Source: Escherichia phage vB_EcoM_ESCO32
Sequence record: OM386658.1
Strand: one strand, 5' to 3'
Length of the DNA: 64,000 bases
Shown here: in pieces, positions 8,473 to 50,140 of the stretch
Layout: every line of letters begins with the position of its first letter
Position numbering within the stretch: position 1 is the stretch's first letter
Made by a program: the position numbers and the translations under genes
Notes under the pieces: generated by a model
Seen by the model: the letters and a program-made list of their open reading frames with translations, nothing else
The model's database searches: none
What the model was told of the DNA's origin: nothing

Positions 8473-9122
8473 CAACAATTATTGCAACACATAACAAAAT
8501 TCTATCTGATGGTAAAGTAACAGTAGGTAATCGAGTAGACACTTTAAATTTCAAGAAAGTGCGTAAAATTGGGGATTACCTTGTTGGTGGTGCAGGACGT
8601 CTGTCTTCTATCCTGACTTTCTTTTCTTGGTTCGAACAAAACTTACAGTGCCAGGCAGCACAAGAGACAATCCCAGGTTTGGTGATCCAGTCAGATCCTG
8701 ATAAAGAAGATGAAGAGTTTGTGGCATTAGTTGTTCACCCAGACGGTAAAATTTATATGCACGAGGGTAACAATCCAACGCGAGCATATCCTTTAACTGA
8801 AGATTATTATGCTGTTGGTAGTGGGGCAGATTTTGCTTTAGCAGCTTTAGACGCTGGGGCAACCCCAGAAGAAGCGATGGAAGTTGCAAAACTGCGAGAT
8901 GCTTTTTCAGGCGGTGAAACTTTTATCGAAGAGATCGAAGAACAACTGGAGTTAACAGCGGAAGATATTCTGAACTTCAGCAAGGAGCAACTAATTAGTA
9001 TGCTGTTGACTGGTGATCCTGATAGTGATGAAGCTGAAAGTATTTTAGCAGAAATGAAAGAATCACAAGAAAAAGTATTGACAGTCTCTGAAAAACTTGA
9101 TAAAGTGTCCTCTGATAATTAA
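8469..9122 (+). CDS. HslV / proteasome beta-like Ntn-hydrolase peptidase with acidic C-terminal extension
   Basis: 217 aa; MTTII N-terminus (Thr directly after Met), KKVRKI, GGAGRLSSILTFFSWFEQNL and YAVGSGADFALAALDAG align with HslV TTIV...KKVRRL...GFAGGTADAFTLFELFE...IAIGSGGPYAQAAA; about 70 extra acidic C-terminal residues. Confidence 0.6.
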   Translation: MTTIIATHNKILSDGKVTVGNRVDTLNFKKVRKIGDYLVGGAGRLSSILTFFSWFEQNLQCQAAQETIPGLVIQSDPDKEDEEFVALVVHPDGKIYMHEGNNPTRAYPLTEDYYAVGSGADFALAALDAGATPEEAMEVAKLRDAFSGGETFIEEIEEQLELTAEDILNFSKEQLISMLLTGDPDSDEAESILAEMKESQEKVLTVSEKLDKVSSDN

Positions 9123-9130
9123 TCTAGTAT

Positions 9131-9152
9131 AAACCCCCGCAAGGGGGTTATT
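9131..9152 (+). terminator. rho-independent terminator
   Basis: CCCCC-GCAA-GGGGG hairpin followed by TTATT. Confidence 0.55.
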
Positions 9153-9162
9153 AGGAGGAGAT

Positions 9163-9591
9163 ATGTTACCAGTACCTGTAATCTTTGTAGAAAAAGCCTA
9201 CTACTCTTTAGAACAAAATTGTAAAAGAGCTAAAAATTTTATTGAAAGTTTAGCAGAACAGCGTTACACTGTATCTAAAAAGGGATGGTTCAGAACTTCA
9301 CAATATTTAGTCAACCCTTTCGGAGAAGTTCGTGTGTTGTATGGCAACACAGAAAATATCTTAGAAAGAATGTTAGAACTAGACAGGATCTCCTCCTGTG
9401 ATTATCAACTGTTGAAATTTTACGATGTGTCAGAAAACGTTAAAAACTTTCTTGATGACTTATGTAAACGAAAAACAGAAGAAGATACAATACCAGTATC
9501 TATGGAAGAATTAACGTTCTTAAGAGATATTATGGTTTTTGAAGAAAACCCTGAAATCACAAAAGAGGAGATTTTAAGTAGTGGCAAATAA
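9163..9591 (+). CDS. hypothetical protein
   Basis: Track ORF; AGGAGGAG SD. Confidence 0.6.
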   Translation: MLPVPVIFVEKAYYSLEQNCKRAKNFIESLAEQRYTVSKKGWFRTSQYLVNPFGEVRVLYGNTENILERMLELDRISSCDYQLLKFYDVSENVKNFLDDLCKRKTEEDTIPVSMEELTFLRDIMVFEENPEITKEEILSSGK

Positions 9592-10090
9592 GTATGATCG
9601 TCCACCAACTGATTACTATCCTACTCCACAAAAATGTATAAATGCATTATTTAGTGTAATAGATTTTAATAACCTTAAAGAAGAAGGTTTTATTTTTGCA
9701 GAACCGTGTAAAGGCGCTGCTGCTGCAATTTATCAACATTTTCCAGAAGGATCAGAATATTGTGAGTTAGAAGAAGGGAAGGATTATTTTAACCACGAAT
9801 GGCATACTAAGCCGGATATTATAATCACAAATCCACCATTCAGACTTGCACTTGAGTTCTTGCAAAAGAGCTTAAAAGAAGCAGACGTTTGCATATACTT
9901 GTTGCGTCTTGGGTTCCTAGAGTCTATTAAACGAAGGGAATTCCATAAACAGAATCCACCAACAAATTTGATTGTTCTTTCTGAACGACCATCTTTTGTT
10001 GCAGGTGGTACTGATAAGACAGCATATGCTTGGTACGTCTACGACCCAAAAAACAGGCTGGGTTTAACTCAACCTTTCTATTTTGTTTAA
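9581..10090 (+). CDS. putative DNA N6-adenine (amino-) methyltransferase
   Basis: 169 aa, GTG start; NPPF catalytic tetrapeptide (motif IV) downstream of YYPTP and AEPCKGAAAA AdoMet-like segment. Confidence 0.55.
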   Translation: MANKYDRPPTDYYPTPQKCINALFSVIDFNNLKEEGFIFAEPCKGAAAAIYQHFPEGSEYCELEEGKDYFNHEWHTKPDIIITNPPFRLALEFLQKSLKEADVCIYLLRLGFLESIKRREFHKQNPPTNLIVLSERPSFVAGGTDKTAYAWYVYDPKNRLGLTQPFYFV

Positions 10091-10103
10091 GAGGAGCATT
10101 TTT

Positions 10104-10334
10104 ATGACCGAGAAATTTATTGTTACTATGGAACTCACCTTTGATGAAGAAGATTTTGATCTTCATGTATCAACTAAAGCAGATAACATTCACACAACAC
10201 AGAGTGTTGCAATCGCTATGTTCTTTAAGCAAGCAATTGCAAAACAAGCTGAAGTGTGTGCTGGTTTAGCTGTAGAGTACGCAGAAGTTGTCAAGGTTCT
10301 TGAAAGTGCTCGCAACAACGATTGGGATGAATAA
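10104..10334 (+). CDS. hypothetical protein
   Basis: Track ORF 10083..10334 trimmed to ATG 10104 after GAGGAG. Confidence 0.5.
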   Translation: MTEKFIVTMELTFDEEDFDLHVSTKADNIHTTQSVAIAMFFKQAIAKQAEVCAGLAVEYAEVVKVLESARNNDWDE

Positions 10335-10537
10335 TGGCATACAATTACTATCTGGTATATTTTAACGAAACTAAGAAAAAAGACACAGGAACTAATGTTT
10401 ATGCGGAATCCGAAGAACACGCAAAAGCTATTGGTTCAGTGCTTCTTTCTAGAATAGCAGGTGAAGAAATTCCTGTAGAGGCTATCTTTGCAGAAGTTGA
10501 CCCTGATATTCAAGAAGATGATATTACCACTACTTAA
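10334..10537 (+). CDS. hypothetical acidic protein
   Basis: Track ORF; TAATG overlap with upstream stop. Confidence 0.45.
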   Translation: MAYNYYLVYFNETKKKDTGTNVYAESEEHAKAIGSVLLSRIAGEEIPVEAIFAEVDPDIQEDDITTT

Positions 10538-10540
10538 CTG

Positions 10541-10569
10541 TTGACTTTAACATTAAGGTAGTGCATACT
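10541..10569 (+). promoter_or_regulatory. sigma70-like promoter upstream of recombinase gene
   Basis: TTGACT - 17 nt - CATACT; approx. Confidence 0.4.
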
Positions 10570-10594
10570 TCCTGCAACAGAACAGGAGGGTATT

Positions 10595-11257
10595 ATGAAG
10601 TTTGTACTGTATCATCGACTTTCTAAGAAGAAACAACAAGGCAACCAGTATGGTATAGAATCACAGGAAGCAGATATCCAACGCTTCCTGGATTCACAAG
10701 AAAATTATACTATTGTAGGTAGCTTTGCAGAGTTTTATTCTGGTAAAGGCGATTGGAAGCAACGTAGAGAGCTTGTAAAAGCTGTTAATCTTTGCAAAGA
10801 AACAGGTGCTACACTTGTTGTTGCTAAGGTTGACCGTCTGGGACGTAACACAGCTTCTGTTGCAACCTTGTTAGAGATGATTAATGTACGGATAGCAACT
10901 ATGCCCTCCGCTGAAAATATGATAATAAATATTTTAGCAGTTCTGGCAGAAGAAGAGGCTCGTGCAATATCTGATCGTGTTAAGAAGAGCCTTAAGGTAG
11001 CAAAAGCGAAGGGAACGCTTCTTGGTGCAGCAAACCCTAAATACAAAAGAACAGATTATACGAAAACGGAAGAAGCAAAACGCTCAAGAGAGTTTGCGCT
11101 TTCTTTAAAAGATTCTTTAGTTGCATACAGAGCTTGTAAAACGCCATATATGACGATTGCAAAGCATCTGAATGAATCAGGAAAGAGAACTATTCGTGGG
11201 AGTTTGTTCGATGCCAAAGCGGTACAACGTCTTTGTGCAAAATTGAATATTAAATAA
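10595..11257 (+). CDS. serine recombinase (resolvase/invertase family)
   Basis: 220 aa; N-terminal YHRLSKKKQ with catalytic Ser, VAKVDRLGRN matches the resolvase DRLGR motif, AVLAEEEARAISDRVKKSLKVAKAKG region, C-terminal HTH-like tail. Confidence 0.8.
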   Translation: MKFVLYHRLSKKKQQGNQYGIESQEADIQRFLDSQENYTIVGSFAEFYSGKGDWKQRRELVKAVNLCKETGATLVVAKVDRLGRNTASVATLLEMINVRIATMPSAENMIINILAVLAEEEARAISDRVKKSLKVAKAKGTLLGAANPKYKRTDYTKTEEAKRSREFALSLKDSLVAYRACKTPYMTIAKHLNESGKRTIRGSLFDAKAVQRLCAKLNIK

Positions 11258-11266
11258 GGAGGAAAC

Positions 11267-11470
11267 ATGGCAGTTCAATCTTTTGAGGAGACTGTTAAAA
11301 AACAATTCCTATCGAAGCGAGCGATGGTTGAATTTTTGCATTTTCTCGAAGTAGATAGGGTACTTATTGAGACTACACCAGATGGTAACTGGCAAGTCTC
11401 GTATATTGCCACCAGGCATATCGTAGACAGTACGAAAGAAGAAAGTTCGGAAGTTACGGTTGCTAGTTAA
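11267..11470 (+). CDS. hypothetical protein
   Basis: Track ORF; AAGGAGG SD. Confidence 0.55.
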   Translation: MAVQSFEETVKKQFLSKRAMVEFLHFLEVDRVLIETTPDGNWQVSYIATRHIVDSTKEESSEVTVAS

Positions 11471-11481
11471 AGGAGTTAAAT

Positions 11482-12054
11482 ATGCGTTTAGCTTTTAACG
11501 GGAAGATAAGCACAGCAAACATATTGTCAGCAGTAGGATTATTAGGTAAAAAATTCACACCTTTCAGTTTACCAGTTTGTGTAGATTTTGATCATGTGTT
11601 TGATATTAATAATCCTTCACGTTGTATCGCCAGAAGTAATATTGATAACCCAAGTGAAAATCTGTTTTATATTACTAAACCATCCCAAGCAATTTTGAAT
11701 CAATGGGAAGCAGGTCTGATTAAACCAGGTAAATATTTTGCATTACTACCTTGTAAATCATTGGCTATAGAGGACAGTCTAAACTATGCAAACAATCTTG
11801 TTGTTACAGCATTCATTGTCTCAGAAAAAGAAGAAACTGCGGCACTTGCAAACACTGTTAAATCTTTGTATGATGCTTTGGGTGTTACTTACACTACCTT
11901 CGTTTGTGAAGATATTCCACATTGCGTTGAATTCGTGGTGAATGGTGTAACTGTATGTCGTGTAGAAACAACTCAAGACGAAGACGTTTTTATTACTGTA
12001 GCCGATGTAATATCTGAACCTGTGTTTAGTTACGCAGTTTCATTAACACATTAA
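11482..12054 (+). CDS. hypothetical protein
   Basis: Track ORF; AAAGGAG SD. Confidence 0.6.
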   Translation: MRLAFNGKISTANILSAVGLLGKKFTPFSLPVCVDFDHVFDINNPSRCIARSNIDNPSENLFYITKPSQAILNQWEAGLIKPGKYFALLPCKSLAIEDSLNYANNLVVTAFIVSEKEETAALANTVKSLYDALGVTYTTFVCEDIPHCVEFVVNGVTVCRVETTQDEDVFITVADVISEPVFSYAVSLTH

Positions 12055-12064
12055 GGAGAAGGGG

Positions 12065-12391
12065 ATGAAAATAACGACAGAACAGGCTTTAATAGACAAA
12101 GGAAGGGAAATCTTAGAAAGTCATTTGGAGGATATTCAAAGGACTCCAGGGTATCTCGGCTGGCGTATACAAGAAGCCGTCGATTTTCTACCCCGTAAAA
12201 ATAAAGAGATTGAAGTAAGATCTCTATTCCTCCTTGTTAAAGTAGATGGTGACGCTATATACAAAGATGTAGCGTCTCACATTGAACAAATAGAAGAAAA
12301 AGCCTACAAAGAATTTGCAGATCTTGTTGTAGAACATAATATAGAAGGTAAAGTTAATATCTTTATACTTATGGATTTTGAGGAGAGTTGA
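12065..12391 (+). CDS. hypothetical protein
   Basis: Track ORF; AAGGAG SD. Confidence 0.6.
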   Translation: MKITTEQALIDKGREILESHLEDIQRTPGYLGWRIQEAVDFLPRKNKEIEVRSLFLLVKVDGDAIYKDVASHIEQIEEKAYKEFADLVVEHNIEGKVNIFILMDFEES

Positions 12392-13134
12392 TGTTAGTAT
12401 ATCAAGAAATTAGTGTAAAAGATGATCAAGACCTGTTTATTATTGGTGATTTACATGGTTGCTTTGATTTGTATCAGAAGGGTGTTAATACTTTAGGTAT
12501 CCGAGATCAAGATGTTGTTGTATCTTTAGGAGATCTTACAGATCGCGGCAAGCAGAATTTTCGTTGTGTTGTTGAATTCACCAGAAAGCTAAATCGTTAT
12601 GGTATTCGTGGAAATCATGAAGATATGATGATTAAAGGGTTGCTAGAAGGTGATAGACGATATTACGAATGTTGGTTTCAGAACGGAGGCCATACAGTTC
12701 TAGACGAGTGTGGAGAAGAGGGTGCAACTGCTCTTGCTTTGATGCTAGAAGATTTACCTGTTGTACTTGTTGTCAATTATCGTAATATGAAACTAGGCTT
12801 TATTCACGGTGGGTATCCTTCAGTTTTGGAACATTTACCAGTAACAGAAGTTTTGCCATTTTGTTTGAATATGAATAAAGAGCAAGTTTCTCGATTCACA
12901 GAATCTTTAATGTGGGATCGTGATATGATAGATTGCGCACTTGAAGGGATTCTTCTTCCTAGGGTTTCAGGAGTAGATTATGTATTTCACGGGCATTCTT
13001 ATGTTCCTAAACCTGTAATTAGCAGTAATAGGGTATATATGGACACAGGATCTTGCTTCAATGGTAATTTAACCTTTGCATATTTTGATGATTCAAATAC
13101 GTTACAATTTTATTCTACTTTAGAGGAGGATTAA
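12391..13134 (+). CDS. Ser/Thr protein phosphatase (calcineurin-like metallophosphoesterase, lambda-PPase type)
   Basis: Motifs GDLHGC, GDLTDRG, GNHE in canonical order; ATG 12391 after GAGGAG. Confidence 0.8.
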   Translation: MLVYQEISVKDDQDLFIIGDLHGCFDLYQKGVNTLGIRDQDVVVSLGDLTDRGKQNFRCVVEFTRKLNRYGIRGNHEDMMIKGLLEGDRRYYECWFQNGGHTVLDECGEEGATALALMLEDLPVVLVVNYRNMKLGFIHGGYPSVLEHLPVTEVLPFCLNMNKEQVSRFTESLMWDRDMIDCALEGILLPRVSGVDYVFHGHSYVPKPVISSNRVYMDTGSCFNGNLTFAYFDDSNTLQFYSTLEED

Positions 13135-31091: not shown

Positions 31092-31461
31092 ATCAGACTC
31101 CTTTATAAATTTACGTTTCATGCCACACATCATACAGCATCTTTTCATCTATTACAAGAACAGCAACATAGAAACATCATTAATGGAGGGCTTAGTATAG
31201 GAATTAGTATAGGTATTCCCTATCAATTATTCTATATATACCTATTATTTTTAACACACCCCTTTGTACATAATATAGACAAATAAATATCTATGCCACA
31301 AAAATTTTCCGGTATACCCGATTTATTTCGACACACCCTTTTTCATAAGCGTAAAGTCAATAATATCAATAACTTGCCGCAAAATACTGCTCGCTTGCGA
31401 GAGGTGCTTAACGCGATTTTCAGCGCCCCCCGATTTCTGCCGACCGTCCCCCTCAAATATC

Positions 31462-31480
31462 AATGAGAATAATTATCATT
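31462..31480. promoter_or_regulatory. Fur-box-like palindrome
   Basis: AATGAGAATAATTATCATT, followed by TTGCAT; approx. Confidence 0.4.
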
Positions 31481-31658
31481 TGCATTATCATTCAATGACT
31501 TATAAGACTTTTGATTATTTTCTGAGCAAGAAAGGTACTACTCACAACAAAACAGATAAATTCTAAGTAAATCAATGGCTTGGCAAGTCTAAACATCTAT
31601 ATACACCTTGCCAAATGAAATGATCTGGCGTGAAATAGTGCCACCCGTGGAAGATAAC

Positions 31659-31675
31659 TGATAATGATTATCATT
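31659..31675. promoter_or_regulatory. Fur-box-like palindrome (best copy)
   Basis: ctGATAATGATTATCATTtgc matches 16 of 19 positions of Fur consensus GATAATGATAATCATTATC; preceded by GATAAC hexamer. Confidence 0.45.
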
Positions 31676-32542
31676 TGCATACTTTCTGTACTATAAAACC
31701 GACTAAAAATCAAGATAATTCTGATTTATTGCGCTTTTAAGAAAGTAGGCTCAACAAATAGGGGAATACATTGCAACAAATGAGGTATGTTATAGGGGCA
31801 ATAGTATGAAAAATCATCTATTCAGATAAAATAATTTTGCGCAATAGTGGCAATATTTTTCTTGACAAGAAAGATTTCTTTGTGTTCACATAGCGCCCCC
31901 TGGAGGGTGGCGCATTATGATCATCAGTGTCATTATTCATTTCAGTGTTATTATTCACCATGTTTATTATATGCAGCTTATATTATAGCCAATGTTCTAA
32001 ACATTAGCTAATAATAACGCACCGCAACAATGTAAGGGAATACAATATACTCGTATATTGTTGCGCTTGCAATTGTTGCAAGCTACATAAGCACAAATAA
32101 TAACTATCGGTGATGGTTATTATGTGGGGTGTGTAGTTGCGTTATTATTAGCCGCCTATGTGTCCGGCATAGGCTGCTAATGATACGCTTGCGAATTATA
32201 TTTCTTGTTATAGTTATTGTATGAAATGATTACTACATGAAATGGTTATTTAGGTAATAGATAGGGAGGTAAAGATTAGATCATAAATAGATAGGATATT
32301 AATTATTTAGCAATGTTACTAACAATTTAATAGTTACTTTGTGCAACAATTCGATAGATTATAGTTATAGTTTTAAGGGTTAGATAGATTATAGTTAGCT
32401 TAGTAATGATTTACATTGATTATTGTTGTTTAATATAAGGTTATCAATAAGATAGTAACAGTATGTTATAAATAAAAGTAAGATAATTAGCTTTAATTTA
32501 GTTAGATAACTTATTATTTTATAAGTTAGATGGTCTTAAGTT

Positions 32543-32561
32543 AAGAATGATTATCATTATT
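32543..32561. promoter_or_regulatory. Fur-box-like palindrome
   Basis: AAGAATGATTATCATTATT. Confidence 0.4.
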
Positions 32562-32597
32562 GCATTATGCAGTTTATTGCATAAATAATCAGCTATA

Positions 32598-32618
32598 AAT
32601 GAAAATGATTATCACTTA
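32598..32618. promoter_or_regulatory. Fur-box-like palindrome
   Basis: AAATGAAAATGATTATCACTT; the segment AATGATTATCACTTA recurs at about 44268. Confidence 0.4.
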
Positions 32619-44221: not shown

Positions 44222-44332
44222 AAATGAGAAAATTCTCATTTGCTAATGATTCTCATTCTCTTACTGAGAATGATTATCACTTACATAGTTAAATGATAAT
44301 GATTCTCATTTACAAATGAGAATCATTATCAT
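44222..44332. promoter_or_regulatory. cluster of five Fur-box-like palindromes
   Basis: AAATGAGAAAATTCTCATTT; TAATGATTCTCATT; GAGAATGATTATCACTT; GATAATGATTCTCATTTAC (15 of 19 to Fur consensus); AATGAGAATCATTATCAT. Confidence 0.45.
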
Positions 44333-44354
44333 ACGCACACCTATAAAAACACGA

Positions 44355-44557
44355 AATTGAACTTTTCATTTTTGATTTTTCTACGGAAAAAGGCAAAAAA
44401 ACTTTAAATAAACTGGGGAATTTTTAAAAAATTGAAGTTTTCATTTTCTAAACCTGGATAGAAATACGTACAAAAACTTTAAATAATTTTGACCAAACTT
44501 GAACTTTTCATTTTCTAAATTTGTACCCAAAAATCTGTAAAAACTTTAAATAATTTT
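44355..44557. repeat. three tandem direct repeats of a 66-76 bp unit
   Basis: Each unit has TTGAA(C/G)TTTTCATTTT and AAAAACTTTAAATAA boxes separated by about 22 variable nt; approx. Confidence 0.55.
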
Positions 44558-44772
44558 GTCCTTTTTATAAAAATGATTTTACTGTTCTGTTATAAATAGT
44601 AGCTAAGAGATAATGTGTCTTTTAAAAACCAAATAGCATAGTCCAACAAACAAATTAAATAATTTATTAACAGAGTACAAAATAATACTTACTCTGGATA
44701 TATTATTCAGAGGGTGAATTTCCGTACATGAAACCCACACCCCTTTTTATAAAAATAAAAATTTTCAAAATA

Positions 44773-48362: not shown

Positions 48363-48614
48363 TTAAAATTCAACCACCACTTTATCGAGGTGCTCTGCTT
48401 CAACTTGATCTAATGTTAACACCTCAACTAAACCCTTGTCAATACCTAATTTAATAACATCAACATATTGTCCAAACAGATCCTGGATAGATATCTTGTG
48501 TTCGACAACAACAACCACTTCATTCCCTTTTGTGAATTCTCTCCATACACGTCCACATTTGAAAATAAAGTCTGCTTCATCTGCTGTTATCATTTTAGGT
48601 TTGATACTTAACAT
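48363..48614 (-). CDS. hypothetical protein
   Basis: Track ORF. Confidence 0.55.
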   Translation of the reverse strand: MLSIKPKMITADEADFIFKCGRVWREFTKGNEVVVVVEHKISIQDLFGQYVDVIKLGIDKGLVEVLTLDQVEAEHLDKVVVEF

Positions 48615-48952
48615 TATAAAACTCCGTACTCTGGTTCAATATTATGCTTACGACAAATGGCATCCCAACGCTCATTACCAAAACTTCTTCCATGTAGTGC
48701 ATCGTATGCGAAATGTTCTGCCAACCACATTACTACACCATCTGGTTCAGTGTCAAGCGGAATTCGAAACTCTCGATCATAACGCATACGGAGAACAAAC
48801 TCATTACCGTCTTCCAGCAGGTGCATATGACTTTTAGCTCGTGATGCCAAATCGAAGAAAGGAGGTTCATCGTTCCAAACGTGACGCTCAACTTCAACAC
48901 CATGATCAACTACCAAAGTGGCAATTACTTCTCTCATTTCTTTACTAAACAT
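48614..48952 (-). CDS. hypothetical protein
   Basis: Track ORF; AGGAGGG SD. Confidence 0.55.
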   Translation of the reverse strand: MFSKEMREVIATLVVDHGVEVERHVWNDEPPFFDLASRAKSHMHLLEDGNEFVLRMRYDREFRIPLDTEPDGVVMWLAEHFAYDALHGRSFGNERWDAICRKHNIEPEYGVL

Positions 48953-49050
48953 ATTAAAGCCCTCCTAATTTAATAGTCCACTCAACACCTGTTAGATAAC
49001 TTCTTTACACAAGTATACTAAGAACATATAAGTGATTTTACCAGATATGT

Positions 49051-49404
49051 TTAGCTCCACAAATTATGGAAATACTTAGCAAACAAAATACGACCTTCTA
49101 AACGCTTTTGCCGTTGTTTTTCATTAACTTCTTCAGGTGGAGTTGAATCCTTAAAAGAGGACTCCATTTTTTCAAGAATTTCTAACCAGTGTTCTGCTGC
49201 TCGTTCTTCCATATAAGGTAGATAGTCACCTTTAGCGTGTGGGTACATCCGACGAAGTAACCCGCTAGGAATTTTAACATTGTTTGTGGCTATCACTTTT
49301 GCACGATATGCAGAAAGTGCGTTGTAGATCAGTTTACTTAGTGTCACATCCAGATCAAGAAGATCACTCTCTTCAAATTGAATTTTATCGTGTACAATTT
49401 TCAT
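49051..49404 (-). CDS. hypothetical protein
   Basis: Track ORF; AAGGAG SD. Confidence 0.55.
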   Translation of the reverse strand: MKIVHDKIQFEESDLLDLDVTLSKLIYNALSAYRAKVIATNNVKIPSGLLRRMYPHAKGDYLPYMEERAAEHWLEILEKMESSFKDSTPPEEVNEKQRQKRLEGRILFAKYFHNLWS

Positions 49405-49415
49405 ATCACTCTCCT

Positions 49416-49706
49416 TTATAGTAAAACACGTTTTGCACTGCTTGGTGCATTGTCGAACATGTTTATCACTTTGTCAAGTTTGTGTATTAACTCGTTCGTA
49501 ATGTTCCACTCTTTGTATGATCTCCATTGTTTCTTATTCTCACCTACCTGGTGTAAAACTTTGATTGGTGCATTCAAACGTACATTGCGTTCTTTGTCCT
49601 CTTCAAAAGAGGCTAACCATTTTTCGTTATGCCCATGAACAGCAATAATAATGCCAAAACCATCAAAAGTTTCTGTAATATTCTTAGTTGCTAGTGTGAT
49701 GTTCAT
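49416..49706 (-). CDS. hypothetical protein
   Basis: Track ORF; AGAGG SD. Confidence 0.55.
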   Translation of the reverse strand: MNITLATKNITETFDGFGIIIAVHGHNEKWLASFEEDKERNVRLNAPIKVLHQVGENKKQWRSYKEWNITNELIHKLDKVINMFDNAPSSAKRVLL

Positions 49707-49765
49707 ATCTAACCTCTTTTGTTACGATACCCACAGAGTACCAGAAACTAATTTCAAATCAAGTA

Positions 49766-49793
49766 TTGACATACATTTTTATTTTGTTAAGAT
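49766..49793 (+). promoter_or_regulatory. sigma70-like promoter at strand switch
   Basis: TTGACA - 16 nt - TAAGAT, about 30 nt before gene 49825. Confidence 0.45.
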
Positions 49794-49824
49794 TAGCGCA
49801 TACCAAATGAAAGGAGAAAAACAA

Positions 49825-50004
49825 ATGCAAAACATCGAACTAACTTCTATCGAAGCTAAAGAAGCAATGAAGGAAGATAGACGTGTTGAACATAACCGTT
49901 TTTGCGGTGGTGAGTGGTTTGAGATGGAATTCAGATCGGAAGTTTGGCAAGGGAGTGATGGGGCTGTAATCAAAAAGGAAAGAAGAAATGATCTACAAAA
50001 ATAA
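49825..50004 (+). CDS. hypothetical protein, 59 aa
   Basis: Track ORF 49651..50004 trimmed to ATG after AAAGGAG. Confidence 0.5.
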   Translation: MQNIELTSIEAKEAMKEDRRVEHNRFCGGEWFEMEFRSEVWQGSDGAVIKKERRNDLQK

Positions 50005-50140
50005 GTTCACTGGCTGTCTGCGTAAATTTATTGACAAAAAAGGGTATGTTTCTGTTGACAATGGTGTTACGTGGGTGCAAAATGGCACTTCAGAACAACT
50101 GGTCAAGGCTTTACCTTACTACGAGGAGTTTACAAAATGA
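49988..50140 (+). CDS. small protein, 50 aa
   Basis: ORF below threshold; AAAGGAAAG SD; ATGA overlap with next gene. Confidence 0.35.
   Translation: MIYKNKFTGCLRKFIDKKGYVSVDNGVTWVQNGTSEQLVKALPYYEEFTK

What the first reader, a model, noticed from the sequence alone, without database searches (positions are those of the whole stretch)
10541..11257. Small serine recombinase (resolvase/invertase family) with its own promoter
The protein has the resolvase catalytic serine region (YHRLSKKKQ), the DRLGR motif (VAKVDRLGRN) and a C-terminal HTH-like tail. T4 relies on its own recombination machinery, so a site-specific recombinase here suggests an invertible DNA switch, a resolution system, or a captured mobile-element remnant. 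I could not identify crossover-site inverted repeats by eye.
Basis: partly seen in the sequence, partly recalled or inferred. Interest (0 to 1): 0.65.

Follow-up and report, generated by a model that had tools for sequence, protein, structure and literature searches.

The report
Early serine recombinase in phi92-like phage
The gene is a real, intact-looking serine recombinase that phi92-like (not T4) virulent coliphages all carry and probably express early; databases already annotate it, its DNA target and role are unknown, and I found no working DNA switch tied to it.

Summary
ORF 10595-11257 (+) encodes a 220-aa serine recombinase (Pfam PF00239, E=8e-22). Every catalytic residue aligns with gamma-delta resolvase and Hin. 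A sigma70-type promoter sits 26 nt upstream and is conserved in eight divergent loci.

The genomic context was wrong. The window is a phi92-like Justusliebigvirus (up to 99.9% identity over the locus), not T4. The gene is phi92 gp053, annotated since the original record as "putative recombinase, resolvase family / DNA invertase".

The protein belongs to none of the characterised subfamilies. It joins a resolvase catalytic domain to a truncated large-serine-recombinase "Recombinase" helix-turn-helix domain. That ~220-aa architecture is widespread in phages and on small plasmids.

It is under strong purifying selection (dN about 0.11-0.18, synonymous sites saturated). It is frameshifted in phAPEC8/Schickermooser, so it is dispensable.

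No crossover sites flank it, and no long non-hairpin repeats exist genome-wide. The genus has one inversion polymorphism, a 0.9-kb promoter cassette at 49056-49958 (23 vs 32 genomes). It has no flanking inverted repeats and shows orientation-linked divergence, so it looks like an old allele rather than a switch.

Best guess, low confidence: a resolvase-like accessory enzyme acting on replicating phage DNA. Interest is modest.

The parts
10541..10569 (+). Sigma70-type promoter candidate: -35 TTGACT (10541-10546), 17-nt spacer, -10 CATACT (10564-10569)
   Evidence: Sequence. A 9/12 match, which is not above chance alone. Both hexamers keep the same position in 8 loci at 100-50% protein identity while the spacer and flanks diverge. 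Function is inferred; there are no transcript data.
10584..10589 (+). Ribosome-binding site AGGAGG, 5 nt before the ATG
   Evidence: The phi92 record annotates an AGGAG RBS for gene 053.
10595..11257 (+). Serine recombinase CDS, 220 aa plus stop (the phi92 gp053 orthologue)
10622..10624 (+). Codon of Ser10, the predicted nucleophile (aligns with S10 of gamma-delta resolvase and of Hin)
   Evidence: Alignment A2. At least 90% conserved in A1, missing only in the N-terminally truncated P0081.
10832..10846 (+). D80-R81-L82-G83-R84 (DRLGR) active-site motif, equivalent to gamma-delta D67/R68/R71
   Evidence: D80, R81, L82 and R84 are invariant in 30 family members and in the alignment with gamma-delta resolvase and Hin; G83 varies (S or A in some members).
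10916..11008 (+). Long helix E (residues 108-138), the dimer/tetramer interface helix of serine recombinases; carries E121 and R128
   Evidence: AlphaFold model helix H108-138. E121 and R128 are invariant.
11063..11242 (+). C-terminal helical DNA-binding domain (residues 157-216): a truncated 'Recombinase' domain of the large-serine-recombinase type, not the HTH_7 of invertases and resolvases
   Evidence: Four helices at pLDDT about 90. PF07508 hit in 22/30 family members, best E=3.3e-7. No HTH_7 hit. Foldseek full-length alignments to the Bxb1 integrase (9iu2) and another serine integrase (9dxd).
10334..10537 (+). Conserved upstream neighbour 'up1' (67 aa, phrog_15892, unknown function)
   Evidence: Homologues sit directly upstream of the recombinase in L003 and L004 (E=3e-6 and 3e-10). 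PHROG assignment. The functional link is untested.
11267..11470 (+). Downstream neighbour 'dn1' (67 aa, unknown function), starting 9 nt after the recombinase stop
   Evidence: Homologue in the same position in L004 (E=1e-4). A gene of 59-67 aa occupies the same place in L101-L104. The AlphaFold model has no PDB fold match.
10527..10564 (.). 38-bp imperfect dyad (CCACTACTTAACTGTTGA-CT-TTAACATTAAGGTAGTGC) centred on the -35 hexamer; probably chance
   Evidence: 13/18 arm matches, in the top 0.012% of window positions. Not conserved in L022, L101 or L104, whose recombinases are 87-78% identical and have the same recognition-helix sequence.

Best explanation
The gene encodes a catalytically competent small serine recombinase. 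It has a resolvase-type catalytic domain and helix E, followed by a truncated large-serine-recombinase 'Recombinase' helix-turn-helix domain. It is a conserved but non-essential accessory gene of phi92-like and phAPEC8-like virulent myoviruses (Stephanstirmvirinae) and of allied 130-150-kb phages.

It is probably transcribed early by host RNA polymerase from its own sigma70-type promoter, inside the DNA-metabolism gene block.

By analogy with the family, a dimer would bind a dyad-symmetric site. Two site-bound dimers would synapse, Ser10 would cut all four strands with covalent 5'-phosphoserine links, and subunit rotation would exchange the partners.

The target site is not next to the gene and was not identified. 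My best guess for the role is resolvase-like: resolution or cyclisation acting on replicating phage DNA, as inferred for same-architecture relatives on small plasmids. It is not a flip-flop switch.

What is shown: family identity, intact active site, domain architecture, conservation, selection and dispensability. What is inferred: early expression, catalytic activity, mechanism and biological role.
For: Identity and active site:
- PF00239 matches at E=8e-22.
- The structural and profile matches are to Sin, Tn3, gamma-delta, Gin and Bxb1.
- Y6, R8, S10, D80, R81, R84, E121 and R128 are conserved in 30 homologues down to 31% identity. They align with the gamma-delta and Hin catalytic residues.

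Selection:
- dN is 0.11-0.18 with synonymous sites saturated (dN/dS about 0.08 where it can be computed) against homologues at 87-78% identity.
- The gene is present at >=99% aa identity in 55/55 Justusliebigvirus records.

Context:
- It is always co-directional within blocks of small early or DNA-metabolism genes on large lytic-type phage contigs.
- Promoter hexamers are conserved in 8 loci.

Resolvase-like reading:
- Full-length relatives at about 35% identity with the same ~220-aa architecture lie on plasmids, 92 of 110 of them non-mobilizable. Examples are 6.4-kb and 7.3-kb plasmids with only a handful of genes.
- The architecture is a large family. The best 150 cluster representatives score E<=1e-22, and nearly all are about 210-245 aa matched over almost their full length.

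Not a lysogeny gene:
- The locus has no match in 5,426 complete E. coli genomes.

Not essential:
- The phAPEC8/Schickermooser copy carries several frameshifts.
Against: - No recombination site was found. The upstream gap is only 57 bp and holds no conserved dyad.
- Genome-wide exact repeats of 15 nt or more are terminator hairpins or coding coincidences.
- phi92 has 343-bp direct terminal repeats. T7-like replication of such genomes needs no site-specific recombinase.
- The plasmid relatives' resolvase role is itself only inferred from context.
- Some relatives at about 35% identity sit at the ends of viral contigs, as integrases do (positions only).
- No transcript, binding or activity data exist, and no paper in the searchable library addresses the gene.
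Confidence: 0.4

Rival explanations
1. It is a DNA invertase that flips an invertible segment, as the RefSeq label and the first reader suggest. The only candidate is the 0.9-kb divergent-promoter cassette at window 49056-49958, whose inversion swaps the promoters feeding the leftward and rightward gene clusters. The inversion also splits or fuses a gene.
For: - The cassette is the only inverted segment in whole-genome comparisons of three Justusliebigvirus genomes.
- Both orientations are common: 23 records are window-like and 32 are inverted, including phi92.
- The cassette carries a divergent promoter region.
- There is a weak, sub-threshold HMM similarity to the Mpi 'master invertase', which acts at dispersed promoters.
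- An LSR-like enzyme could invert between dissimilar att-like sites, which would leave no inverted repeats (inference).
Against: - There is no significant inverted repeat at the junctions. The best is 11/12 nt, and 19 of 300 shuffles do as well in the window-like form; the inverted form shows nothing above shuffles.
- Orientation is strictly linked to sequence divergence. The adjacent left flank is 86-87% identical between forms against about 98-99% within the window-like form, about 220 bp at the junction is unalignable, and the cassette itself is 90-97% identical. These are old alleles, not a flipping switch.
- Outgroups have the window-like layout, so one derived event suffices. The outgroups are Phapecoctavirus nepoznato and the Klebsiella phages phi1_175008 and KP13-26.
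- The recombinase is >=99% identical in both forms.
- There is no HTH_7 domain, and no hix/gix-like sites lie near the gene.
Confidence: 0.1
2. It acts on DNA other than the phage's own: the host chromosome, resident prophages or satellites, plasmids or defence islands. It would be an early host-takeover or anti-defence function.
For: - The promoter is an early, host-RNA-polymerase type.
- The gene lies among small early genes of unknown function and near candidate counter-defence genes such as DNA methyltransferases and Sir2.
- No site was found in the phage genome.
- It is non-essential in the laboratory, as accessory host-interaction genes often are.
Against: There is no positive evidence. 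Orthologues are conserved across phages of very different hosts (Escherichia, Klebsiella, Pseudomonas, Vibrio, Shewanella), which would require a shared or co-evolving host target. No paper in the searchable library reports a serine recombinase of a virulent phage acting on host DNA.
Confidence: 0.15
3. It is a relic of a temperate or mobile ancestor (a small serine integrase or transposon resolvase) that is kept by inertia and has no current role.
For: - Several relatives at about 35% identity lie near the ends of viral contigs, the usual place of integrases.
- The phAPEC8/Schickermooser copy is frameshifted.
- No target site was found.
Against: - Purifying selection is strong and the catalytic residues are invariant over deep divergence.
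- The gene is present and intact in 55/55 Justusliebigvirus records and in the sampled Phapecoctavirus records other than Schickermooser.
- Micro-synteny with up1 and dn1 and the promoter are conserved.
- There is no transposase, no flanking repeats and no integrated copy in 5,426 E. coli genomes.
Confidence: 0.1
4. It is a domesticated DNA-binding protein, such as a transcription regulator, that no longer catalyses recombination.
For: A 38-bp dyad overlaps its own -35 hexamer in the window. This recalls autoregulation of tnpR by resolvase.
Against: The complete catalytic set is conserved across the family, which is not expected if only binding mattered. The dyad is not conserved in close relatives.
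Confidence: 0.05

Closest known systems
Small serine recombinases of the resolvase type (Tn3 / gamma-delta TnpR, Sin, and plasmid multimer-resolution enzymes)
   Same: The catalytic domain fold and all active-site residues match (S10, R8, D67, R68, R71, E118 and R125 equivalents). So do the long helix E and the small size. Same-architecture relatives occur on small plasmids.
   Different: - There is a 10-residue insertion after the Ser motif.
- The C-terminal domain is of the PF07508 type with a longer linker, not HTH_7.
- There is no three-subsite res region upstream; only 57 bp are available.
- There is no transposon and no obvious circular replicon to resolve.
DNA invertases Hin / Gin / Cin / Pin (the name given to this gene in RefSeq and PHROG 125)
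   Same: Same superfamily and phage-borne. Similarity to P1 Cin and to Gin is detectable.
   Different: - Only about 28% identity to Hin in a global alignment and about 32% to P1 Cin over half the protein.
- No HTH_7 domain.
- No adjacent invertible segment or hix/gix-like inverted repeats.
- Tail-fibre regions are collinear between genomes.
Large serine recombinases / integrases (Bxb1, phiC31, TP901-1, A118, CcrB)
   Same: The spacing of the N-terminal motif (S..Q then G.S..Q) matches, and the first helical part of the 'Recombinase' domain is present. The top Foldseek hit is Bxb1 integrase, and the best NCBIfam hit is CcrB, far below its cut-off.
   Different: It is 220 aa rather than 450-600 aa. 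It lacks the rest of the recombinase domain, the zinc-ribbon domain and the coiled coil that control att-site choice and directionality. There is no evidence of integration.
Bacteroides Mpi 'master DNA invertase'
   Same: It is a small serine recombinase that acts on sites far from its own gene. The HMM match runs nearly full length (residues 6-196 against model positions 5-197 of 203).
   Different: The score is 32.6 bits against a 272-bit cut-off, so it is not a member. No family of dispersed inverted repeats exists in the phage genome.
P1 Cre-lox (functional analogy only)
   Same: It is a phage-encoded site-specific recombinase that can cyclise a terminally redundant genome and resolve dimers. 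This is the kind of role proposed here (established knowledge, offered as an analogy).
   Different: Cre is a tyrosine recombinase and P1 is temperate. No lox-like site was identified in the 343-bp terminal repeat, whose palindromes look like host Fur boxes instead.

Membership tests
Serine recombinase superfamily (PF00239) | Resolvase-type catalytic domain detected above the curated threshold | tested here: met
   78.3 bits against a 23.3-bit cut-off, E=8.4e-22, residues 4-141. The AlphaFold model matches Sin and gamma-delta catalytic domains.
Serine recombinase superfamily (PF00239) | Nucleophilic Ser and the Arg/Asp/Glu active-site set (gamma-delta R8, S10, D67, R68, R71, E118, R125) | tested here: met
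   All are invariant in alignment A2 with gamma-delta resolvase and Hin. All are conserved in 30 homologues.
Serine recombinase superfamily (PF00239) | Catalyses conservative site-specific recombination through a covalent 5'-phosphoserine intermediate | not testable with these tools
   Needs a biochemical assay.
DNA invertase subfamily (Hin/Gin/Cin/Pin) | C-terminal HTH_7-type domain and close sequence similarity within the subfamily | tested here: not met
   No HTH_7 hit in the window protein or among the families listed for the 30 relatives. About 28% identity to Hin. Gin structures hit only at E=8e-4 for the single sequence.
DNA invertase subfamily (Hin/Gin/Cin/Pin) | Invertible segment bounded by ~26-bp inverted crossover sites adjacent to the gene | tested here: not met
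   No such repeats within 9000-13000 or across the window. Window 1-25000 is collinear in all 55 genomes.
DNA invertase subfamily (Hin/Gin/Cin/Pin) | Fis-bound recombinational enhancer | not tested
   Fis sites are too degenerate to call from sequence.
Tn3-family / plasmid resolvases | Multi-subsite res region immediately upstream of the resolvase gene | tested here: not met
   The upstream gap is 57 bp. A single 38-bp dyad is present but is not conserved in relatives.
Tn3-family / plasmid resolvases | Residence on a transposon (with a transposase) or on a circular plasmid | tested here: not met
   The neighbours are phage early and DNA-metabolism genes, with no transposase. More distant same-architecture relatives are on plasmids.
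Large serine recombinases (integrases) | Complete recombinase domain plus zinc-ribbon domain with coiled coil; length over 400 aa | tested here: not met
   The protein is 220 aa. Only the first helical part of PF07508 is present.
Large serine recombinases (integrases) | Integration into a host attB (lysogeny) | tested here: not met
   The locus has no match in 5,426 complete E. coli genomes. This tests only that collection, at megablast sensitivity.
Mpi-type master invertase (NF009949) | Score above the NCBIfam equivalog cut-off | tested here: not met
   32.6 bits against 272.

The most novel reading that the evidence does not exclude
A conserved, early-expressed serine recombinase of strictly virulent ~150-kb myoviruses performs a programmed rearrangement of the phage genome during lytic growth. 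One form would be cyclising or resolving the terminally repeated genome through a site not yet recognised. Another would be a unidirectional LSR-style inversion between dissimilar sites that produced, and might still produce at low frequency, the two orientations of the divergent-promoter cassette at 49056-49958. Either would be a new use of site-specific recombination in a non-temperate phage.
Probability: 0.12. Interest if true: 0.6.

Novelty: new member of a known kind. Interest (0 to 1): 0.3.

Why it matters
phi92-like and phAPEC8-like phages are popular candidates for phage therapy. A gene labelled invertase, recombinase or integrase raises a safety flag, and one genome paper states that these phages carry no specific recombinases (PMC5374246).

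This work shows four things. The gene is a genuine, selected serine recombinase. It is not an integrase of a lysogenic cycle, since no integrated copy was found in 5,426 E. coli genomes. It is not a Hin/Gin-type invertase. Its role is open.

If the role were found, it would explain why a strictly virulent phage lineage maintains a site-specific recombinase. It would also characterise a large, unstudied ~220-aa subfamily that is common in phages and on small plasmids.

Tried and rejected
- **Inverted and direct repeats.** I searched around the gene, across the window and across two complete genomes. Only terminator hairpins and coding coincidences turned up. One example was an 18-19-nt pair that simply encodes a shared ADLVV peptide.
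- **Dyad scan for crossover-like sites.** The 38-bp dyad over the -35 hexamer is statistically unusual in the window. It is absent from relatives at 87-78% identity, so I rejected it as a conserved site.
- **The inversion at 49056-49958 as the recombinase's product.** I tested the junctions for inverted repeats, compared outgroups and compared divergence between forms. It was rejected as an active switch. A one-off recombinase-mediated event is not excluded.
- **A site in the terminal repeat.** The palindromes there match the E. coli Fur-box consensus, so they are more simply host Fur sites.
- **The downstream neighbour dn1 as an accessory factor.** Only 2 homologues were found with the word-indexed search. 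The AlphaFold model reached pLDDT 80, but no PDB fold matched. Dead end.
- **Lysogeny.** No match in the E. coli genome collection.
- **Literature.** Nothing functional was found. The 2012 phi92 genome paper is not held.
- **Rfam.** No RNA family anywhere in the window.

Full report
**What is there**

The region holds one ORF, 10595-11257 on the + strand, of 220 aa with an ATG start. An AGGAGG ribosome-binding site lies at 10584-10589. A 57-bp gap upstream contains TTGACT-17 nt-CATACT at 10541-10569.

Pfam places residues 4-141 in PF00239 (Resolvase N-terminal domain) at E=8.4e-22. PHROGs gives family 125 ("DNA invertase") at 1.5e-31 and family 95 (large serine integrases) at 1e-25. Single-sequence and profile searches of the PDB hit Sin, Tn3, gamma-delta and Gin.

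**The active site is intact**

I aligned the protein with four distant homologues and with gamma-delta resolvase and Hin.

The invariant columns are Y6, R8, S10, Q24, S49, G50, R57, D80, R81, R84, E121 and R128. They correspond to gamma-delta Y6, R8, S10, Q14, S39, G40, R45, D67, R68, R71, E118 and R125. The same residues are invariant or at least 90% conserved in 30 homologues down to 31% identity. The condition "catalytic serine absent on proper alignment" is not met.

**Architecture**

AlphaFold (mean pLDDT 85.7) gives four parts:
- an alpha/beta catalytic domain (residues 1-100)
- a long helix E (108-138)
- a low-confidence linker (pLDDT below 50 at residues 151-157)
- a four-helix C-terminal domain (157-216)

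The best Foldseek match is the Bxb1 large serine integrase. Next come the Sin and gamma-delta catalytic domains.

The C-terminal domain is not the HTH_7 of invertases and resolvases. 22 of 30 family members hit Pfam PF07508 "Recombinase" there, with best E=3.3e-7. The window protein itself does not reach E<=1 for that model. A 10-residue insertion follows the Ser motif, as in large serine recombinases.

NCBIfam gives only far-sub-threshold hits: CcrB, Mpi and YneB. The protein is therefore a small serine recombinase with a truncated LSR-type DNA-binding domain. It belongs to none of the characterised subfamilies.

That architecture is common. The library of 50%-identity cluster representatives gives 5,986 hits at E<=1e-3 and 2,562 at E<=1e-10. 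Nearly all of the best 150 are about 210-245 aa and match over almost their full length.

**Whose genome this is**

It is not T4. The 1.2-kb locus is 99.9% identical to Escherichia phage VEcB. Fifty-five records of phi92-like phages match it at 95-99.9%. These are genus Justusliebigvirus, subfamily Stephanstirmvirinae, with ~147-kb myovirus genomes.

The gene is phi92 gp053. The phi92 record annotates it as [quoted passage not shown].

All 55 records encode it at >=99% aa identity. Orthologues occur at several identity levels:
- 78% in Klebsiella phage phi1_175008
- about 57% in Phapecoctavirus
- 55% in a Pseudomonas phage
- 35-49% in 130-140-kb Vibrio and Shewanella phages

In every locus examined, the gene lies co-directionally inside a block of small early or DNA-metabolism genes of a large lytic-type phage. 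In phi92 that block also holds nrdAB, thymidine kinase, DNA ligase, DprA-like and RdgC-like proteins and two methyltransferases.

**Promoter**

The hexamer pair scores 9/12, which by itself is at chance level (22 sites found against 20.9 expected). However, a TTGAC(A/T)-17/18-nATAnT pair occupies the same position in eight loci whose recombinases are 100, 87, 82, 78, 72, 56, 52 and 50% identical. The spacer and flanks differ between them.

I take this as good comparative evidence for a host-RNA-polymerase promoter, and hence early expression. No transcript data exist.

**Selection and dispensability**

Against homologues at 87, 82 and 78% aa identity, synonymous sites are saturated (pS 0.68-0.81) while dN is 0.11-0.18. 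dN/dS is about 0.08 where it can be computed.

Small flanking genes are conserved with the recombinase: up1 in the window, L003 and L004, and up2 and dn1 in the window and L004. In Phapecoctavirus Schickermooser the N-terminal half carries several frameshifts. Only a 128-aa C-terminal ORF is annotated, and the record describes it as identical to phAPEC8_0049. So the gene is selected but is not essential for plaque formation.

**Search for recombination sites near the gene**

No notable inverted or direct repeats lie within 9000-13000. Across the window, the only high-identity inverted repeats are terminator hairpins.

A scan for dyads with a 2-bp core found a 38-bp imperfect palindrome centred on the -35 hexamer (10527-10564). 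It has 13/18 arm matches, in the top 0.012% of window positions. It is absent upstream of relatives at 87-78% identity that share the same putative recognition helix. I regard it as chance.

Downstream, the next gene starts 9 nt after the stop. There is therefore no room for a res-like region.

**Search for inversions between genomes**

Window 1-25000 is collinear as a single piece in every one of the 55 Justusliebigvirus records. The only exceptions are records whose ends cut it.

Window 25-50 kb is a hypervariable mosaic. I therefore fetched three complete genomes and compared them locally.

Genome-wide, exactly one segment is inverted: window 49056-49958. It carries these features:
- a 117-aa gene
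- a 96-aa DUF7325 gene
- a divergent promoter region
- a 59-aa ORF

Among the 55 records, 23 have the window's orientation ("B") and 32 have the opposite ("A"), including phi92. In A, the 59-aa ORF is fused in frame to the neighbouring 112-aa gene, giving a 183-aa protein.

It does not behave like a recombinase-driven switch, for three reasons:
- The junctions carry no significant inverted repeat.
- Orientation is strictly linked to sequence divergence. The adjacent flank is 86-87% identical between forms, against about 98-99% among window-like genomes. About 220 bp at the junction cannot be aligned. The cassette itself is 90-97% identical.
- The outgroups have the B layout, so A is a single derived event. 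They are Phapecoctavirus nepoznato and Klebsiella phages phi1_175008 and KP13-26.

A one-off event catalysed by the recombinase between dissimilar sites cannot be excluded. Nothing points to it.

**Other tests**

- Exact repeats of 15 nt or more in two complete genomes are terminator hairpins or coding coincidences.
- The locus has no match in 5,426 complete E. coli genomes, so there is no sign of an integrated or plasmid form.
- On plasmids, full-length relatives at about 35% identity occur in 110 records. Ninety-two of these are non-mobilizable, and they include 6.4-kb and 7.3-kb plasmids with a handful of genes. This is the usual setting of multimer-resolution recombinases.
- In IMG/VR, 596 stretches encode relatives, some near contig ends.
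- The downstream neighbour dn1 gave no fold match.
- No paper in the searchable library discusses the gene's function. One genome announcement states that phAPEC8-like phages have no specific recombinases (PMC5374246). That does not hold for ESCO13, whose RefSeq record annotates a "resolvase".

**Interpretation**

The firm part is this. It is a bona fide, probably active, probably early-expressed serine recombinase of an uncharacterised ~220-aa subfamily. It is a conserved accessory gene of a virulent phage lineage.

The mechanism (dimer binding, tetramer synapsis, Ser10 cleavage, subunit rotation) follows from family membership and is inferred.

The biological role is unknown. I favour a resolvase-like action on replicating phage DNA. 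The reasons are that the nearest same-architecture relatives sit on small plasmids, the gene sits in the DNA-metabolism block, and there is no evidence for a switch or for lysogeny. With no site identified, that reading deserves only low confidence.

The rivals cannot be excluded without experiments. They are action on host or rival DNA, a relic integrase, an invertase of the promoter cassette, and a non-catalytic regulator.

**Verdict**

This is a new member of a known kind, already annotated in public records. Interest is modest at 0.3. What lifts it slightly is the open question of why a strictly virulent phage keeps a site-specific recombinase, together with the promoter-cassette dimorphism found here.

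Noticed in passing
window 49056-49958 (flanks 48614-50140): A 0.9-kb cassette exists in two orientations among 55 Justusliebigvirus genomes: 23 like the window and 32 inverted, including phi92. It carries a 117-aa gene, a 96-aa DUF7325 gene, a divergent promoter region and a 59-aa ORF. In the inverted form the 59-aa ORF is fused to the 112-aa gene (48614-48952) to give a 183-aa protein. It is the only inversion genome-wide in three genomes. There are no flanking inverted repeats, divergence is linked to orientation, and the outgroups are window-like.
   Followed up: yes
window 31455-31485, 31655-31685, 32543-32616, 44240-44335: Clusters of palindromes match the E. coli Fur-box consensus GATAATGATAATCATTATC. 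There are 6 hits at <=3 mismatches against 0.04 expected, and the core AATGAKWMTCATT gives 11 against 0.9. They include a perfect 40-bp palindrome at 44293-44332. They lie in the terminal repeat and in a 1.5-kb gene-poor region. This suggests iron/Fur control of promoters near the genome end.
   Followed up: partly
window 44340-44560: Three iteron-like direct repeats (GAACTTTTCATTTT ... AAAAACTTTAAATAATTTTG, about 67 nt apart) lie next to the Fur-box cluster in a region without ORFs. They may mark a replication origin or a regulatory region. Rfam finds no RNA family in the window.
   Followed up: no
window 31409-31751: This stretch corresponds to the 343-bp direct terminal repeat annotated in phi92 (phi92 positions 1-556 align to window 31751-31199). 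The window therefore runs across the physical genome end, which means it comes from a circularly closed or permuted assembly. The leftward gene cluster 18.9-30 kb is phi92 gp001-036, read inward from the left end.
   Followed up: partly
window 33573, 34759, 36405, 39081, 39961, 42906: Six copies of a GC-rich stem-loop GCGGGAAACCATTTCCCGCC occur between small genes of the hypervariable leftward cluster (0 expected by chance). In related genomes the copies are often followed by CTATGTG. They resemble the repeated terminator/promoter stem-loops that mark hyperplastic early regions of other large phages.
   Followed up: no
L016 1390-2046 (Escherichia phage Schickermooser, NC_048196.1 about 11300-11955): The recombinase orthologue is a pseudogene, with several frameshifts in the N-terminal half. 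The remaining 128-aa ORF is described in the record as identical to phAPEC8_0049.
   Followed up: yes
window 25000-49000: This is a highly mosaic region of small leftward genes. Identity to other Justusliebigvirus genomes drops to 90-96%, with many insertions and deletions. Several records have their start or end here.
   Followed up: partly
phage records MG065639.1, MG065645.1, MG065656.1, MG065689.1: Four 'Campylobacter phage' records (hosts listed as C. jejuni, marked UNVERIFIED where inspected) are ordinary Justusliebigvirus genomes about 98% identical to this coliphage window. This is probably a host mis-assignment or a contaminant.
   Followed up: no
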